A DNA stretch of 64,000 nucleotides from Escherchia phage Stokescottia. How positions within the stretch are numbered: position 1 is the first letter of the stretch; each line of letters opens with the position of its first letter. Where the stretch lies: sequence record OR896820.1, one strand, 5' to 3'. The notes beneath the pieces are model-generated. The model did no database searches, was not told where the DNA came from, and saw only the letters and a program-made list of their open reading frames with translations. The position numbers were made by a program, and so were the translations under genes. Below, one piece after another: positions 3,232 to 57,752 of this stretch.

Positions 3232-4122
3232 TTATACCAAATCTTTAAGCGATTCAGCAACTAAAATTTCAATACGTTTTGCTAACATATCAATTTCTTC
3301 TTTATTTAAGTCACCAGGGTCTTTACCTTCAGGCAGAAGAAAGTTAGCAACTACAGGTGTTAAACGCGTTTTTGTACGAATTAGCTTGGCCAACGCTTGT
3401 GCAGCTTTGTTACCAGAAGCATCATTATCTAGTAAGATAACAACAACTTTTACACCAGCAATAATATAAGGACTGAACTTATCTGCAATGTTATCCGAAG
3501 TAAACTGATGTGTACCAAAGCAGCAAGAAGCATAGTCTATACCATTATCCTCTAGGTTCAGCATATCAAAGATACCTTCAACTAGAATAAGAACTGGAGT
3601 ATTATATCGTACAGGGAAAATCGGTGGTGAAACTTGCTTTGGTTTTACTAAGTATTTAGGAGGGGCAGAACTGTTTATAGAACGACCCAAAAATAGGATA
3701 TTGCGTCCAACAGCATCTGTGATTGGGAATACAATTCTGCCTTCCCAGTCTGCTTGGTGTTGGAAAGCAAAATATTTCTTCAAGGTCTTAGAACTTATAC
3801 CTCGGAAATCACCTTCGAAAAGGTAAGCAGATTCAGGAATTGCAAGATTCGTAGATCCATTCCTAATCTCTGAAATCTTTTTACGTACCTGCGATAGTCT
3901 TGGGGACTGTCGGTACTGAGTCTCATTAAAATAATGGTAAATGCTCGGTATACCTTTACCGAAGCCACAACTCAAGCAGTGCATAATACCTGTTTCAGGA
4001 TCAATACGCAAACTTGGGTGTTTATCGTCATGATCTGGATTGAGACAACAGATGAGGATGTCCCCACCTGTGTCTTTATATTCAATGCCTTTCAGATCAA
4101 GTAGTTCTGTTATTCTACTCAT
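3232..4122 (-). CDS. DNA primase (zinc-binding N-terminus plus Toprim domain)
   Basis: 296 aa; N-terminal CxxH...CxxC zinc motif (CCLNPDHDD...HCLSCGFGKG); Toprim-like LVEGIFDMLNLED...LLDNDASG. Confidence 0.75.
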   Translation of the reverse strand: MSRITELLDLKGIEYKDTGGDILICCLNPDHDDKHPSLRIDPETGIMHCLSCGFGKGIPSIYHYFNETQYRQSPRLSQVRKKISEIRNGSTNLAIPESAYLFEGDFRGISSKTLKKYFAFQHQADWEGRIVFPITDAVGRNILFLGRSINSSAPPKYLVKPKQVSPPIFPVRYNTPVLILVEGIFDMLNLEDNGIDYASCCFGTHQFTSDNIADKFSPYIIAGVKVVVILLDNDASGNKAAQALAKLIRTKTRLTPVVANFLLPEGKDPGDLNKEEIDMLAKRIEILVAESLKDLV

Positions 4123-5642
4123 ATATCGCTGGCCTGTTCACCTGTTGAATTTTCAGCTTTGTCTTTCTTAGCACGTTTAGGTTGAGCCGGCTTATCCTTC
4201 TCAATAGGGATAATGAACTCAGCTTCCATTTGAGATATATCTTCCATTGCTAGGTTGGTAGTGTTATCCATCCGCAGGGTTTCCCAGTTCATTTTAGGCA
4301 TAAACTTCACGCTATCAGAAGAACGAGTCTTAACGAAGTCAAACATAATAGCACCTTGACCATTATCAGCTTTTGCAGCATTAAGATTAGCAGCCATGTC
4401 AGCGGAATCAAGAATCCCCTTTGACATACGTGTTCTACCATCTTGATCAATCTGGTAAGGAGCTACACCAGCCACATTATGTTTCTGGCAGATAGATTTG
4501 AAAGACGAGCTGACAACCATCTGTTCTTTCCAGTCATACATATCAATGGTTTTAGAGTCTGGAAGTCTGGTCTGGTTAATATAGTCCAGTAAAGCTACTG
4601 TAACTTTATCTCCGTATCTAGCAACTAATTTATTTAATTCTACGTCAACTGTTGTAATAGACAGCTCAGGGTCATAAACAATAATCATAGGAGTATGTAG
4701 CTCATACCCTTCTATTAGCTTACTCTCCATATCGTAGAAATCACTCATCTTAGCCATTGTGTACTGTTTAACGAAGCTATCGAAAAGCTCTTCACCACCA
4801 TTAAACATTCTAGCTCTAGTTCTGGCTAATCTCAATAGAGCTGCACCTTCTAGAGTATTATTACGCATTGCTAATGCTGATACACCAGCTAACATGGCTA
4901 GATTACGTCTAAATACTTCATGTTCTTTCATCTCAATTGAGAAGTATGGAGCAATATCCCCATTCAAATATTGCTGAACCTGTATGTTTGAACAGATAAT
5001 GGATTTACCAGTACCACGCCAACCACCAAGCAGTAACGTTTCTGTGCGAGCTAAACCAATTTGAGCGTCGAACTCATTACAAATACCAAGAGCGATTAAG
5101 TTCAGTTTGGTATCTTCTTCTCTCTGGAAAATACGCATGTTATCTGCGTTGAATACTTTTCCAGTATTCGTTACTTTCTCTTCTAATTTTAAGTGAAGGG
5201 AGGCAACTCGGTTGAGAATTTCTCCCTGATCCAGCATTGTTAAATCTTGAAGCACGTCTGTTTCTAGAAGCTTCAGGAATAAATCCTGTGTATATTCAGC
5301 CTCTAGGACTTCAAGTGCCTGTTCCATGCTCACTTCTGGAATTTGAGTGTTAGCTAAGACGACTAGAGCTTGAGAAAGGCGGGCGTTCCTATTAGCCTCA
5401 AGCATCAGTGCGTCAATGGACGGCATTGTGTTATATTTTTTATAATAATTCTGGACGGCTTGGTAAATTGAGGAGAAAGCGTCATTAAAATGATCTTTAT
5501 GCAGTTTTGAGAATGTTTCCAATGCTATTTGCTTCTGTTCAGAAGCTAGAAGCATCTTCAACACTACAGCTTGCACGTTAAACAAGGTCATTCTCCTTTG
5601 CACGCTTTCGTGCCTTCTAAATGCAAAAAGGGGAAGGAGCAT
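4119..5642 (-). CDS. replicative DNA helicase, DnaB-like
   Basis: 507 aa; Walker A GGWRGTGKS; 4-nt overlap with primase; start uncertain because a terminator-like hairpin overlaps the first codons. Confidence 0.7.
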   Translation of the reverse strand: MLLPLFAFRRHESVQRRMTLFNVQAVVLKMLLASEQKQIALETFSKLHKDHFNDAFSSIYQAVQNYYKKYNTMPSIDALMLEANRNARLSQALVVLANTQIPEVSMEQALEVLEAEYTQDLFLKLLETDVLQDLTMLDQGEILNRVASLHLKLEEKVTNTGKVFNADNMRIFQREEDTKLNLIALGICNEFDAQIGLARTETLLLGGWRGTGKSIICSNIQVQQYLNGDIAPYFSIEMKEHEVFRRNLAMLAGVSALAMRNNTLEGAALLRLARTRARMFNGGEELFDSFVKQYTMAKMSDFYDMESKLIEGYELHTPMIIVYDPELSITTVDVELNKLVARYGDKVTVALLDYINQTRLPDSKTIDMYDWKEQMVVSSSFKSICQKHNVAGVAPYQIDQDGRTRMSKGILDSADMAANLNAAKADNGQGAIMFDFVKTRSSDSVKFMPKMNWETLRMDNTTNLAMEDISQMEAEFIIPIEKDKPAQPKRAKKDKAENSTGEQASDI

Positions 5643-5657
5643 AGCCCCCTCCCCTTA
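5624..5657 (-). terminator. rho-independent terminator-like hairpin
   Basis: GC-rich inverted repeat GGGGAAGG...CCCTCCCC followed by a U-run on the minus strand, just 3' of 5674..6441. Confidence 0.5.
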
Positions 5658-5673
5658 GGTTTAATTTACCAGA

Positions 5674-6441
5674 TTATTCAGCAGCCGCAGCTTTTGCATC
5701 CAGTTTAGCACGCTTAGCGGCACCATCATAGTCCTTAGCAACCAGACCACGACGAGACAGCATAGATTTAACACCACGCTCAGACTTACCAGTTTTCTCA
5801 GCGATCTCAGCAACAGTCATGTTAACCAGATCTAGACCTTCTAACAGATCTTCACGAGTTTTAGCACTTGAAGTTTCCTGTACCGGCATAGCAGCAATAC
5901 GACCTTCACGAAGCAGGCTCAGAGCTTTACCACGGATCTGCTTAATATTGCGACCGAAGTGAGCAGCGATAGCTTCAATAGTAGCACCAGCAACAACCTG
6001 ATTAACAAAATCAGTTTCTTCATCCGGAGTGAAGGAACGAACAGCAGCAGCTTTTTCAGTTGGTTTAACAGAAGCGGTCATTTCCAGACTCAGAATCTTA
6101 CCTTGTACCTGCTTAGCACCGAACTGACCACCAGCTACAGCAGCAGCGATTTCAGCATAGGTATACTGACCAGCATGAGCATTCAGGAAATCAACCAGTT
6201 CAGCTTCCTGCTCAGGAGTCCACGGGGATTTCTGTACTTCGTTAGCTTTCTGTACTTCAAAACCTTCTTTACGCAGTTTAGAGCCAACAGAGCGAGCGGT
6301 AACGTCTTTGCCAGTTTCAGCGGCCAGTTCAGCAGCGATAGCAGCTACTTGTTCTTGAGAGATTACAGCAACACCCAGAGCAGTGGCTTTTGCTTTCAGA
6401 GACTCGGTTACACCTTCTACGTTCCAGTTCAGTTTAGACAT
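5674..6441 (-). CDS. putative DNA-binding protein with four tandem ~40-aa HTH-like repeats
   Basis: 255 aa, Ala-rich; recurring pattern ...EIAxxxGxxxxxVxxKxxSL... Confidence 0.45.
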   Translation of the reverse strand: MSKLNWNVEGVTESLKAKATALGVAVISQEQVAAIAAELAAETGKDVTARSVGSKLRKEGFEVQKANEVQKSPWTPEQEAELVDFLNAHAGQYTYAEIAAAVAGGQFGAKQVQGKILSLEMTASVKPTEKAAAVRSFTPDEETDFVNQVVAGATIEAIAAHFGRNIKQIRGKALSLLREGRIAAMPVQETSSAKTREDLLEGLDLVNMTVAEIAEKTGKSERGVKSMLSRRGLVAKDYDGAAKRAKLDAKAAAAE

Positions 6442-7204
6442 TATTATTTTTCTCCAATAGTTCTTTAATCGACAGGATTTCTATCCCATTCGTTTCGGCT
6501 TTCTTATAAGATGAGGAAGAACGTTTTGATTCATCCTCACAGATTAGGTATTTGACGTCTTTGGTAACGGATTTCTTAACCGTATATCCTAGACCTTCTA
6601 AATAGTTTGTTGCATCCGTTCGATTTGCAAAATCTTGCAAAGATCCGGTAATACATACCACGATTCCATTTGGCTGGGCAACTAAATCATCAGTAACGAC
6701 AGTTTTAGCTTTAGCACCAGTTGAGAATTTCCACGGTAGTTCGATAACATCCTTGCCTTGTGGGGAATTTAGCCAGGCTTTGTAGTTTTCTCCAGCCTTG
6801 CCGTCAGCCTTCACATCGTGGAAGCTAGTGCAATTTTGGGATAATTTCTTTGCTGCAACCTCTCCGATTAGAGGGATTCCTAAAGAACCGAGAACTGAAC
6901 CAAAGTCAATGTCTCCGCGAACTTTAGTATTTAATTCGCTAATTAACTTAGCTGCAACCTTGCTACCCACGGCTCTAACTAAATCTTCTTCGGTTAGGTA
7001 AAATAGTTCTGAAATCTTCGTCAGCTCCAGCTTCTCAATAGTTTTTGGGCCAAAGCCCTTTAACTTCATTTTTGTACAGAAGTTCTCAATTAACTTACTT
7101 GATTGCGCTGGACAGTTGGACTTATTCCTACAGAATAATTGTCCGTTGACAAGATCTAGCTTAGAACCACAAGAGGGACATTGTGTTGGAATTTCGATTT
7201 TCAT
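6434..7204 (-). CDS. ligB: NAD-dependent DNA ligase, C-terminal part (Zn finger, HhH, BRCT)
   Basis: CPSCGSKLDLVNGQLFCRN..C zinc finger and BRCT-like tail; ATG at 7204 preceded by ATAAATTGATAAGGAAG box. Confidence 0.75.
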   Translation of the reverse strand: MKIEIPTQCPSCGSKLDLVNGQLFCRNKSNCPAQSSKLIENFCTKMKLKGFGPKTIEKLELTKISELFYLTEEDLVRAVGSKVAAKLISELNTKVRGDIDFGSVLGSLGIPLIGEVAAKKLSQNCTSFHDVKADGKAGENYKAWLNSPQGKDVIELPWKFSTGAKAKTVVTDDLVAQPNGIVVCITGSLQDFANRTDATNYLEGLGYTVKKSVTKDVKYLICEDESKRSSSSYKKAETNGIEILSIKELLEKNNNV

Positions 7205-7234
7205 CAAATTTCTTCCTTATCAATTTATATAAAT

Positions 7235-7263
7235 ATTATAGCAAGTATTTAAGCATTTAGCAA
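7235..7263 (-). promoter_or_regulatory. early-type promoter between the two ligase halves
   Basis: On minus strand TTGCTA, 17-nt spacer, TATAAT, then ATTTATATAAATTGATAAGG box. Confidence 0.6.
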
Positions 7264-7406
7264 CTACAATTTTAACTAACTTTGCTTACCCTCGCCATAA
7301 CTTTCTATCCCTCAACTGAATGATAATAGTATATACCTAAGCGGCGAAAATGTCAATAACCACTTTATAATTCCGATATGGTAGATGGGTAGCAAAGGGT
7401 TATGTA

Positions 7407-8378
7407 TTAATCGTATACTCGCTCTACTATGCACGGGATTACACCACCAGCACGAATTACTCGAATCTGGCAACCGATCTCTAGATCAAGAGAGTTAATA
7501 TAATCAACGTTATTAAGAGTCGCTTTAACAATTGTAGCATCATCAATAATTACCGGTTCGAAATAACCAACTGGAGTTACTTTACCAGAAGCCCCTACCT
7601 GCCACTCAACTTTAGTAAGAGTTGTAATCTCGCCTTCTTCATCCTCTTTAATAGCGAATGCTCCACGAGGGAATTTATTAGTCCAGCCTTCTCGGAAGAA
7701 TTTGTTGTTGTCATTAATACGAACAACTTTACCGTCCGTCGGAATCCATTTAAAGAATGAACGCACATTAACAACTGTTAAGAAGTCTTCATTCTCTAGC
7801 CAAAGCATATCTTTTAAATATGCTTCTGTAATACCTACAGATTCAGCAGAACACTGGATACCATATGCAACGAAGATTAAACCACCTTCCCCGATACGTT
7901 GTACGAAATCATCGCTATCTTTGAGGTTAATAGCACCAGAGGCAAAGTTACGTTTATTCTCTACTTCTTTTGTAATTAGAACTTCACCAGTGATTTGAGT
8001 AGGTACTTTTTGGGAAATCTTTTTAGGGATGTTCAGCAATCTTACGTTGCTTGTGACATCATTCCCTAGAATACCGTTACCACGAGTTAGTGCTTGAACA
8101 AATTCTCCATTAATATATAACAGAGAAATCGCACAACCATCTAATTTATCAGTTTCTACCTGACCTAATGGGTTAAACGGAGGTTTATCTCCACGATTAT
8201 AATAAACTTTCTGTAAAGAATACATACGATACAGATGTGGAATATCACCCTTAGGCCCGATCTCTTCTTCTAACGGGAAGCGTTTTACCAGGCAATCATA
8301 CTCCTCATCAGAGATTAAAGACATGCCTTGATAATATGCTTCTTGACAGCGTTTAATAAATTCTTTTACATTAGTCAT
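7407..8378 (-). CDS. ligA: NAD-dependent DNA ligase, N-terminal adenylation/OB part
   Basis: 323 aa; active-site KxDG motif in TDKLDGCAISLLY; separate ORF from the Zn/BRCT half. Confidence 0.8.
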   Translation of the reverse strand: MTNVKEFIKRCQEAYYQGMSLISDEEYDCLVKRFPLEEEIGPKGDIPHLYRMYSLQKVYYNRGDKPPFNPLGQVETDKLDGCAISLLYINGEFVQALTRGNGILGNDVTSNVRLLNIPKKISQKVPTQITGEVLITKEVENKRNFASGAINLKDSDDFVQRIGEGGLIFVAYGIQCSAESVGITEAYLKDMLWLENEDFLTVVNVRSFFKWIPTDGKVVRINDNNKFFREGWTNKFPRGAFAIKEDEEGEITTLTKVEWQVGASGKVTPVGYFEPVIIDDATIVKATLNNVDYINSLDLEIGCQIRVIRAGGVIPCIVERVYD

Positions 8379-8651
8379 TTATTCTGCCTCATAGTACGTG
8401 GGCTGTCTAGTGGACCCGTGCCATGTATAGTTTTTGCAAAGATGCAAATATGTAGTTTTTACTAGCCTATCTGACAACGGAGAGTATATTTCAGCTGTTA
8501 ATACTTCTTTTTCGTAATGAAGTGAAATCAGCTTATACCCACTTCTAGTTTTAGTATACTTTTCTCCATTAATCTTCTCCTCCCACATAAGTATAAGAGG
8601 CTGTCCGATGTATGGGAAAGGTTTAAGTGTACTTATATTTATCTTTTTCAC
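8379..8651 (-). CDS. hypothetical protein
   Basis: 90-aa ORF, apparent GTG start with GAGAGG SD, abuts ligase start. Confidence 0.4.
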   Translation of the reverse strand: MKKINISTLKPFPYIGQPLILMWEEKINGEKYTKTRSGYKLISLHYEKEVLTAEIYSPLSDRLVKTTYLHLCKNYTWHGSTRQPTYYEAE

Positions 8652-8681: not shown

Positions 8682-8711
8682 ATTATATAACAAAACTGAG
8701 TTGAAAGCAAA
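8682..8711 (-). promoter_or_regulatory. early-type promoter
   Basis: Minus strand TTTGCT, 18-nt spacer, TATAAT, then ATAAATTAATGAGAGGG box. Confidence 0.55.
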
Positions 8712-8723
8712 TACATTTATAAA

Positions 8724-8757
8724 TAAAAAAGCCAAGAACTAGGCATTCTTGGCTTTG
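8724..8757 (-). terminator. rho-independent terminator
   Basis: Hairpin GCCAAGAA/TTCTTGGC flanked by A6 on plus strand (U-run on minus). Confidence 0.6.
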
Positions 8758-9841: not shown

Positions 9842-9944
9842 ATTTTATATTTCCTTAATTAAGAATTAAACAGAATAGTTCTTTCAAACTATGAGAATAT
9901 TATATCAAGAATAATAGGATTAAGCAACTGAAATTTTTCTGTAG

Positions 9945-28265: not shown

Positions 28266-28294
28266 TTGCTAAACGCTTCAAATTCTCGTATAAT
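28266..28294 (+). promoter_or_regulatory. early-type promoter
   Basis: TTGCTA, 17-nt spacer, TATAAT, then CATAAATTGATAAAC box. Confidence 0.6.
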
Positions 28295-57723: not shown

Positions 57724-57752
57724 TTGCTTTAAGCCTTAAAATTCTGTATAAT
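57724..57752 (+). promoter_or_regulatory. early-type promoter
   Basis: TTGCTT, 17-nt spacer, TGTATAAT, then CATAAATTAATGAGAGAGG box. Confidence 0.6.

What the first reader, a model, noticed from the sequence alone, without database searches (positions are those of the whole stretch)
6434..8378. NAD-dependent DNA ligase encoded as two ORFs with a promoter between them
The adenylation/OB half (KxDG) and the Zn-finger/HhH/BRCT half are separate ORFs about 200 bp apart, and a full early-type promoter (7235-7263) precedes the downstream half. The two halves can therefore be expressed independently and must assemble in trans.
Basis: partly seen in the sequence, partly recalled or inferred. Interest (0 to 1): 0.45.

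Follow-up and report, generated by a model that had tools for sequence, protein, structure and literature searches.

The report
T5-type two-subunit NAD+ DNA ligase
This is the known split NAD+-dependent DNA ligase of T5-like phages (subunits LigA and LigB, separate genes with promoters between them); it was first reported in 2005, and a related phage's enzyme has a solved heterodimer structure, so the finding is correct but ordinary.

Summary
On the minus strand, ligA (8378..7407, 323 aa: domain Ia, adenylation and OB) and ligB (7204..6434, 256 aa: Zn-finger, HhH and BRCT) are separate genes in different frames. They lie 202 nt apart, and that spacer has stops in all three frames. The window is a T5-like phage (Tequintavirus), about 98% identical to many deposited genomes in which these genes are already annotated as NAD-dependent DNA ligase subunits A and B. 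The split was reported with the T5 genome (Wang et al. 2005, as cited in PMC1684257). PDB entries 9HU3 and 9I5I (released 2026) show the orthologous "PR1 phage heterodimeric DNA ligase" bound to nicked DNA, so assembly in trans is already shown structurally. Points added here:
- The spacer holds two tandem sigma-70 promoters, not one.
- No terminator follows ligA, so only ligB is independently expressible.
- ligB is translationally coupled to D5.
- No fused form appeared among the 240 closest homologues listed.
- A consensus promoter lies about 58 nt upstream of ligB in 36 of 36 distinct relatives, even where the spacer is 56 nt or holds 2 kb of inserted genes.

Verdict: already known, low interest.

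The parts
8682..8710 (-). Early-type promoter (TTGCTT-N17-TATAAT) upstream of the 90-aa ORF and ligA; probable start of the transcription unit that ends with ligA
   Evidence: pattern match, class 24 observed vs 0.16 expected; a terminator-like site lies just upstream at 8756..8728
8379..8651 (-). 90-aa hypothetical ORF whose stop (TAA 8381..8379) abuts the ligA ATG
   Evidence: annotated as hypothetical protein in T5_ev212; no Pfam hit
7407..8378 (-). [quoted passage not shown]
7205..7406 (-). 202-nt non-coding spacer between ligA and ligB; stops in all three frames, no Rfam match, no significant RNA fold
7328..7356 (-). Promoter P1, TTGACA-17-TATACT (11 of 12 to consensus); conserved in enterobacterial, Aeromonas and Vibrio T5-like phages
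7235..7263 (-). Its -35 begins 59 nt upstream of the ligB ATG. A promoter at about this position is conserved in every relative examined
7212..7218 (-). Shine-Dalgarno-like AAGGAAG, 7 nt upstream of the ligB ATG
   Evidence: read directly from the sequence
6434..7204 (-). ligB: NAD+-dependent DNA ligase subunit B (C4 Zn finger, HhH, BRCT), 256 aa
5674..6441 (-). D5 DNA-binding protein gene; its ATG overlaps the end of ligB (ATGTCTAA), so it is co-transcribed with ligB and probably translationally coupled to it
   Evidence: D5 follows ligB in Shiner, DU_PP_V, Gary and AhSzq-1
5628..5656 (-). Intrinsic-terminator-like hairpin (13 pairs, 8 G-C) plus T-run; the first terminator-like site downstream of ligA, ligB and D5

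Best explanation
This is the two-subunit NAD+-dependent DNA ligase characteristic of T5-like phages (family Demerecviridae). An ancestral single-chain LigA-type gene was broken in the short linker between the OB fold and the Zn finger.

LigA (domain Ia, NTase, OB) carries the NAD+-binding residues and the adenylated lysine K78. LigB (Zn finger, HhH, BRCT) supplies the DNA-clamping half that single-chain enzymes need for the steps after self-adenylation. The two polypeptides associate non-covalently on nicked DNA to form a functional ligase.

The break coincides with an operon boundary. ligA is the last gene of one early unit: promoter 8710..8682, then orf90, then ligA. The spacer carries two sigma-70 early promoters, P1 and P2, that start a ligB-D5 unit ending at the terminator at 5656..5628. 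No terminator follows ligA, so ligB and D5 should be transcribed from three promoters and ligA from one.

- **Shown here:** gene structure, domain content, promoter motifs and their conservation, and absence of fused forms.
- **Shown elsewhere, for an orthologue:** the heterodimer on nicked DNA.
- **Inferred:** that this particular pair assembles and ligates, that the promoters fire, and the relative dosage of the two subunits.
For: - **Identity:** 456 phage records match the region. [quoted passage not shown]
- **Domains:** Pfam aden and OB in LigA, BRCT and HhH in LigB. Alignment to E. coli, Thermus filiformis and other solved bacterial LigA structures places the break between about residues 393 and 400 of E. 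coli LigA.
- **Conserved residues:** K78, D80, G81, E132 and K244 and the Ia residues Y15 and Y27 are invariant in 24 LigA subunits. The four Zn cysteines are invariant in 18 LigB subunits.
- **Structure:** the AF2 model of LigA (pLDDT 85.6) best matches 9I5I and 9HU3, 'PR1 phage heterodimeric DNA ligase in complex with 21-mer nicked DNA'. Chain B of those entries is 100% identical to the protein encoded in Providencia phage PR1/PSTCR5.
- **No fused form:** the 120 best LigA homologues are 307-337 aa, apart from one 240-aa partial sequence. The 120 best LigB homologues are 247-263 aa, apart from two truncated ones of 190 and 214 aa. None is a fused chain of about 600 aa.
- **Gene order:** in 78 of 80 viral loci ligA lies upstream of ligB, with a spacer of 56 to 2040 nt. 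The other two contigs are too short upstream to tell.
- **Promoter conservation:** a strict promoter motif lies within 90 nt upstream of ligB in 36 of 36 distinct loci, against a background of 0.045 per 90 nt. In an alignment across ten divergent T5-like relatives (Tequintavirus, Sugarlandvirus, Hongcheonvirus, the PR1 group, Aeromonas and Vibrio phages), the conserved columns are almost only the promoter hexamers, the TGn and an A-tract.
- **Transcription unit:** there is no terminator-like site between ligA and ligB.
- **Literature:** a truncated single-chain enzyme (Ia, aden, OB) self-adenylates but does not ligate (PMC1684257). This is why the B half is expected to be required.
Against: No biochemical or expression data exist for this exact phage. 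The solved heterodimer is only 52-56% identical to these proteins. I found no publication describing 9HU3 or 9I5I, so activity, affinity and stoichiometry are not known to me. Promoter activity is predicted from sequence and conservation only. The terminator scan is a simple pattern search and could miss a weak or factor-dependent terminator after ligA.
Confidence: 0.9

Rival explanations
1. Sequencing or assembly frameshift, or a decaying pseudogene: the ligase is really one ORF, or is dead.
For: The two ORFs are adjacent, on the same strand and in different frames. That is what a frameshift artefact would look like at first glance.
Against: - The spacer is 202 nt with at least 4 stops in each frame, and it has no counterpart in single-chain LigA, where only about 6 linker residues are unaccounted for.
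- The same arrangement is found in 429 independently sequenced phage records covering most of the region and in 78 of 80 viral contigs.
- Catalytic and Zn-binding residues are invariant down to about 47-51% identity, so the genes are under selection.
- A relative's two chains were solved as a complex with nicked DNA.
Confidence: 0.01
2. Recoding or splicing: the spacer is an intron, an intein-like element or a translational bypass site, and a single-chain ligase is made from the two ORFs.
For: T-even phages do have group I introns and a 50-nt ribosomal bypass in gene 60 (established knowledge). One relative, L032, carries a GIY-YIG homing-endonuclease-like ORF in the spacer.
Against: - No Rfam family matched the spacer, group I and II introns included, at E up to 1.
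- The RNA fold is no better than shuffled sequence, z = -1.1.
- Spacer length ranges from 56 nt to 2 kb and its sequence is unconserved apart from the promoter elements.
- In Vibrio and marine relatives, whole unrelated genes sit between ligA and ligB.
- LigB has its own Shine-Dalgarno sequence and ATG.
- The PDB entries are titled heterodimeric and have separate chains A and B.
Confidence: 0.02
3. The halves work largely independently: LigA alone is a sufficient minimal ligase, and LigB is mainly a separate DNA-binding or BRCT scaffold protein acting with D5 or the replisome.
For: ligB has its own conserved promoter or promoters and is coupled to D5 rather than to ligA. Inserted genes can separate ligA and ligB by up to 2 kb. 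The predicted dosage of ligB exceeds that of ligA (inference from three promoters against one).
Against: - Ia-NTase-OB fragments of single-chain NAD+ ligases adenylate themselves but do not ligate (PMC1684257).
- The two genes co-occur, in the same order, in every locus long enough to judge.
- The orthologous pair was solved together on nicked DNA.
- LigB keeps all the Zn-finger cysteines and the conserved HhH residues of a ligase C-terminal half.
Confidence: 0.07

Closest known systems
Bacteriophage T5 LigA/LigB (NAD-dependent DNA ligase subunits A and B; AAU05253/AAU05254; Wang et al. 2005, Virology 332:45)
   Same: Same genes, order, spacer and neighbours (orf90, ligA, ligB, D5, dnaB helicase). 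The region is about 96-98% identical in nucleotides to deposited Tequintavirus genomes that annotate the subunits. [quoted passage not shown]
   Different: Nothing of substance; this is a strain-level variant.
Providencia phage PR1 heterodimeric DNA ligase (PDB 9HU3 and 9I5I, released January and February 2026)
   Same: Orthologous two-chain enzyme from a T5-like phage. Chain A matches LigA at E = 5e-103 and 52-53% identity. Chain B matches LigB at E = 6e-81, and the identical Providencia phage protein (P0230) is 55% identical to LigB. It was solved bound to nicked DNA. Its genomic spacer also has two tandem promoters, at about -153 and -57 (L037 and L041).
   Different: Identity is only about 52-56%, and the spacer is 150 nt rather than 202 nt. 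No paper describing the structure was found in the library.
Single-chain bacterial LigA (E. coli 2OWO; Thermus filiformis 1DGS)
   Same: Same domain set and order (Ia, NTase, OB, Zn, HhH, BRCT), the same motif I lysine and the same C4 Zn finger.
   Different: It is one polypeptide of about 670 aa. The phage version is cut at the OB/Zn linker and totals 579 aa; the stretch of LigA N-terminal to its OB domain is about 70 aa shorter than the equivalent stretch of E. coli LigA. Sequence identity is about 25%.

Membership tests
NAD+-dependent DNA ligase (LigA family) | Nucleotidyltransferase domain with motif I KxDG (adenylated lysine) | tested here: met
   K78-L-D-G81 is present. K78, D80 and G81 are invariant in 24 homologues. 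Pfam DNA_ligase_aden scores 82.8 bits against a cut-off of 27.
NAD+-dependent DNA ligase (LigA family) | N-terminal domain Ia with the NMN-binding residues that confer NAD+ specificity (E. coli Y22, D32, Y35, D36; residue list from memory of the literature) | tested here: inconclusive
   The motif AYYQG...SDEEYD occupies residues 14-28. Y15 and Y27 are invariant, and E25, E26 and D28 nearly so. The region aligned to Thermus Ia only weakly (domain 1), and the model's pLDDT there is 58-71. Cofactor use was not tested.
NAD+-dependent DNA ligase (LigA family) | OB-fold domain following the NTase domain | tested here: met
   Pfam DNA_ligase_OB scores 78.5 bits against a cut-off of 32.9, over residues 252-321. 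It aligns to E. coli LigA 284-390.
NAD+-dependent DNA ligase (LigA family) | C4 zinc finger, HhH domain and BRCT domain at the C-terminus | tested here: met
   C9, C12, C25 and C31 are invariant. BRCT scores 34.5 bits against a cut-off of 21.3. HhH_2 scores 24.4 bits, below its cut-off of 27, but the region aligns to the HhH region of 1DGS and 2OWO.
NAD+-dependent DNA ligase (LigA family) | All domains on a single polypeptide (canonical architecture) | tested here: not met
   There are two ORFs in different frames, and the 202-nt spacer has stops in all frames. This is the defining difference of the T5-type subfamily.
T5-type heterodimeric (split) NAD+ ligase | Separate ligA (Ia-NTase-OB) and ligB (Zn-HhH-BRCT) genes, ligA upstream, in a Demerecviridae replication module next to D5, helicase and primase | tested here: met
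T5-type heterodimeric (split) NAD+ ligase | The two subunits form a complex that binds and seals nicked DNA | not testable with these tools
   Supported only by homology to PDB 9HU3 and 9I5I.

The most novel reading that the evidence does not exclude
The split may be adaptive rather than a neutral accident. A promoter directly in front of ligB is conserved in every relative, and ligB is coupled to D5 rather than to ligA. LigB may therefore be made earlier, or in excess over LigA, and may have a second, ligase-independent role. Candidates are binding or marking nicks, including the site-specific nicks of T5-type genomes, or acting as a BRCT scaffold for D5 or the replisome. Ligase activity would then be set by the limiting LigA subunit.
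Probability: 0.12. Interest if true: 0.45.

Novelty: already known. Interest (0 to 1): 0.1.

Why it matters
It matters little as a discovery. The split T5 ligase has been in the literature since 2005, is routinely annotated, and now has a solved heterodimer-DNA structure in a relative.

The comparative result here has modest value. The break is fixed across every relative examined, within the Demerecviridae and in related marine viral contigs. It always coincides with a conserved promoter in front of ligB, and the junction tolerates insertion of cargo and homing-endonuclease genes. This frames the split as a stable gene fission at an operon boundary. It also gives a testable idea about subunit dosage, and a natural example for engineering split ligases.

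Tried and rejected
- **RNA element in the spacer:** an Rfam scan of 6900-7700 at E up to 1 found nothing. The RNA fold of the spacer is not better than shuffles, z = -1.1. The intron and structured-RNA idea was dropped.
- **Mini-ORF:** an 8-codon ORF (7298..7272) lies behind an SD-like GAGGGA after P1. It is not conserved in Sugarlandvirus or Vibrio relatives, so it was not pursued as a peptide.
- **Literature on the PDB entries:** searches for 9HU3/9I5I, 'heterodimeric/split DNA ligase' and Providencia phage ligase found no paper.
- **T5 transcription-start data:** a search found nothing relevant.
- **The 2005 Virology paper:** it is not held in the library, so its content is cited only through PMC1684257 and PMC3632103.
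- **Downstream promoter motif:** a pattern written from memory found no match, probably because my spacing was wrong, and was dropped.

Full report
**What is there.** Two ORFs occupy the stated interval on the minus strand.
- The upstream ORF (8378..7407, 323 aa) matches the Pfam NAD-dependent ligase adenylation and OB domains well above their cut-offs. It carries motif I as K78-L-D-G81.
- The downstream ORF has a C-x2-C-x12-C-x5-C zinc finger and a BRCT domain above the Pfam cut-off. Its helix-hairpin-helix match is below the cut-off.
- The ORF lister starts the downstream ORF at TTG 7207. The next codon, ATG 7204, sits 7 nt after AAGGAAG. It is the start used in deposited annotation and it matches the N-terminus of the solved orthologue.
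- LigB is therefore 256 aa (7204..6434) and the spacer is 202 nt (7205..7406).
- The ORFs are in different frames, and each frame of the spacer has at least four stops.

**Where the break falls.** LigA residues 214-320 align to E. coli LigA 284-390. LigB, numbered from TTG 7207, aligns at residues 4-123 to E. coli 402-529. The cut is therefore at the OB/Zn-finger linker, with only about six linker residues unaccounted for. The spacer is inserted non-coding DNA, not missing coding sequence.

**Identity of the window.** The region matches 456 phage records. Of these, 429 cover at least 80% of it, and the best is 97.9% identical. Nearly all are Escherichia, Salmonella or Klebsiella T5-like phages. 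[quoted passage not shown] They are flanked by D5, DnaB helicase and primase.

**What is already known.**
- PMC3632103 lists T5 ligA and ligB as AAU05253 and AAU05254.
[quoted passage not shown] 2005. It also reports that an Ia-adenylation-OB fragment of a single-chain enzyme self-adenylates but cannot ligate.
- Both window proteins hit PDB entries 9HU3 and 9I5I strongly: chain A at E = 5e-103 and chain B, named 'DNA ligase subunit B', at E = 6e-81.
- An AlphaFold model of LigA (pLDDT 85.6) retrieves the same entries first. Their titles are 'PR1 phage heterodimeric DNA ligase in complex with 21-mer nicked DNA containing phage nick sequence' (released 2026-01-14) and '... (random sequence)' (released 2026-02-18).
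- Chain B is 100% identical to the protein encoded in the T5-like Providencia phages vB_PreS_PR1 and PSTCR5.
I found no paper describing those entries.

**The promoter claim.**
- The pattern TTGCT-N18-TATAAT occurs 24 times in the window against 0.16 expected by chance. The hits are on the minus strand up to 17.9 kb and on the plus strand from 20 kb. It is thus a real promoter class of this phage.
- The site at 28266..28294 equals what I recall as the classical T5 early promoter PH207. That identification is from memory and was not checked.
- No terminator-like hairpin lies between ligA and ligB. The next one on this strand is after D5, at 5656..5628.
- The ligB stop overlaps the D5 ATG (ATGTCTAA, 6441..6434).
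- Upstream, a promoter at 8710..8682 precedes a 90-aa ORF whose stop abuts the ligA ATG.
- The inferred layout is: promoter, orf90, ligA, P1, P2, ligB, D5, terminator. ligB can be made without ligA, but ligA transcripts probably always include ligB.

**Comparative evidence.**
- The 120 best database homologues of LigA are 307-337 aa, apart from one 240-aa partial sequence, and all carry only the adenylation and OB domains. They extend down to 46% identity.
- The 120 best homologues of LigB are 247-263 aa, apart from two truncated ones of 190 and 214 aa. None is a fused chain of about 600 aa.
- Annotated genomes from other genera keep the order ligA, ligB, D5. These are Sugarlandvirus, Hongcheonvirus, Thalassavirus and Shenzhenvirus, plus an unclassified Vibrio phage whose post-ligB gene is annotated only as hypothetical.
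- In 80 viral contigs found with a LigB profile, ligA lies upstream in 78. The other two contigs are too short upstream to judge. The spacer ranges from 56 to 2040 nt.
- Long spacers hold unrelated genes. One Tequintavirus contig, L032, carries a GIY-YIG endonuclease-like ORF. Vibrio phage Gary has a DprA-like gene, and marine contigs have a glutaredoxin and other ORFs.
- Whatever the spacer, a strict sigma-70 motif lies within 90 nt of the ligB start in 36 of 36 distinct loci. Its -35 element mostly begins 58-61 nt upstream. The background is 0.045 such motifs per 90 nt.
- The second promoter, at about -150, is present in the enterobacterial, Aeromonas and most Vibrio relatives.
- In an alignment of ten divergent spacers, the conserved columns are almost only the two -35 and -10 hexamers, the TGn and an A-tract.
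- An Rfam scan of the spacer is empty, and its RNA fold is unremarkable.

**Interpretation.** These data exclude a frameshift artefact or pseudogene, and make an intron or bypass mechanism very unlikely. The best explanation is the known one: a stable, ancient gene fission of a LigA-type ligase into a catalytic subunit and a DNA-binding subunit that work as a heterodimer.
- The modest addition from this work is that the fission point is also an operon boundary. A promoter in front of ligB is as conserved as the split itself, and the junction is a tolerated insertion site for cargo genes.
- Promoter activity, subunit ratio and activity of this particular pair are inferred, not shown.
- A minority reading remains open: that LigB has a further role, suggested by its separate and probably higher expression and by its coupling to D5.

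**Verdict.** Interest is low.

Noticed in passing
It is followed by an SD-like GAGGGA and an 8-codon mini-ORF. The tandem-promoter layout is conserved in ten divergent T5-like relatives, but the mini-ORF is not. Why two promoters are kept is unexplained.
   Followed up: partly
L032:2684-3340 (IMGVR_UViG_2974606035_000001, a Tequintavirus contig): A 218-aa ORF with a GIY-YIG catalytic domain (Pfam E = 1.1e-05) is inserted between ligA and the P1/P2 promoters, widening the spacer to 794 nt. It is probably a free-standing homing endonuclease.
   Followed up: partly
L004 (Vibrio phage Gary) 1386-2344; L070 1457-3442; L086 1532-3442: In Vibrio and marine relatives, one to four unrelated genes sit between ligA and ligB. 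They include a DprA-like gene (as annotated in the record), a glutaredoxin and a recurrent 121-125-aa ORF of unknown family. The ligB promoter keeps its position at about -58.
   Followed up: partly
window 6434-6441 (-): The ligB stop codon and the D5 start codon overlap (ATGTCTAA), which suggests translational coupling of the ligase B subunit to the D5 DNA-binding protein. D5 follows ligB in the annotated relatives examined.
   Followed up: partly
window-wide, e.g. 8682-8710 (-), 9899-9927 (-), 28266-28294 (+), 57724-57752 (+): There are 24 exact matches to TTGCT-N18-TATAAT against 0.16 expected. All are on the minus strand below 18 kb and on the plus strand above 20 kb, which marks a divergent switch in early transcription between about 17.9 and 20.0 kb.
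   Followed up: no
window 5628-5656 (-) versus the ORF start at 5642: The annotated start of the DnaB-like helicase ORF (4119..5642) lies inside the stem of the strong terminator-like hairpin that follows D5. Either the true start is further downstream or the terminator and the start overlap.
   Followed up: no
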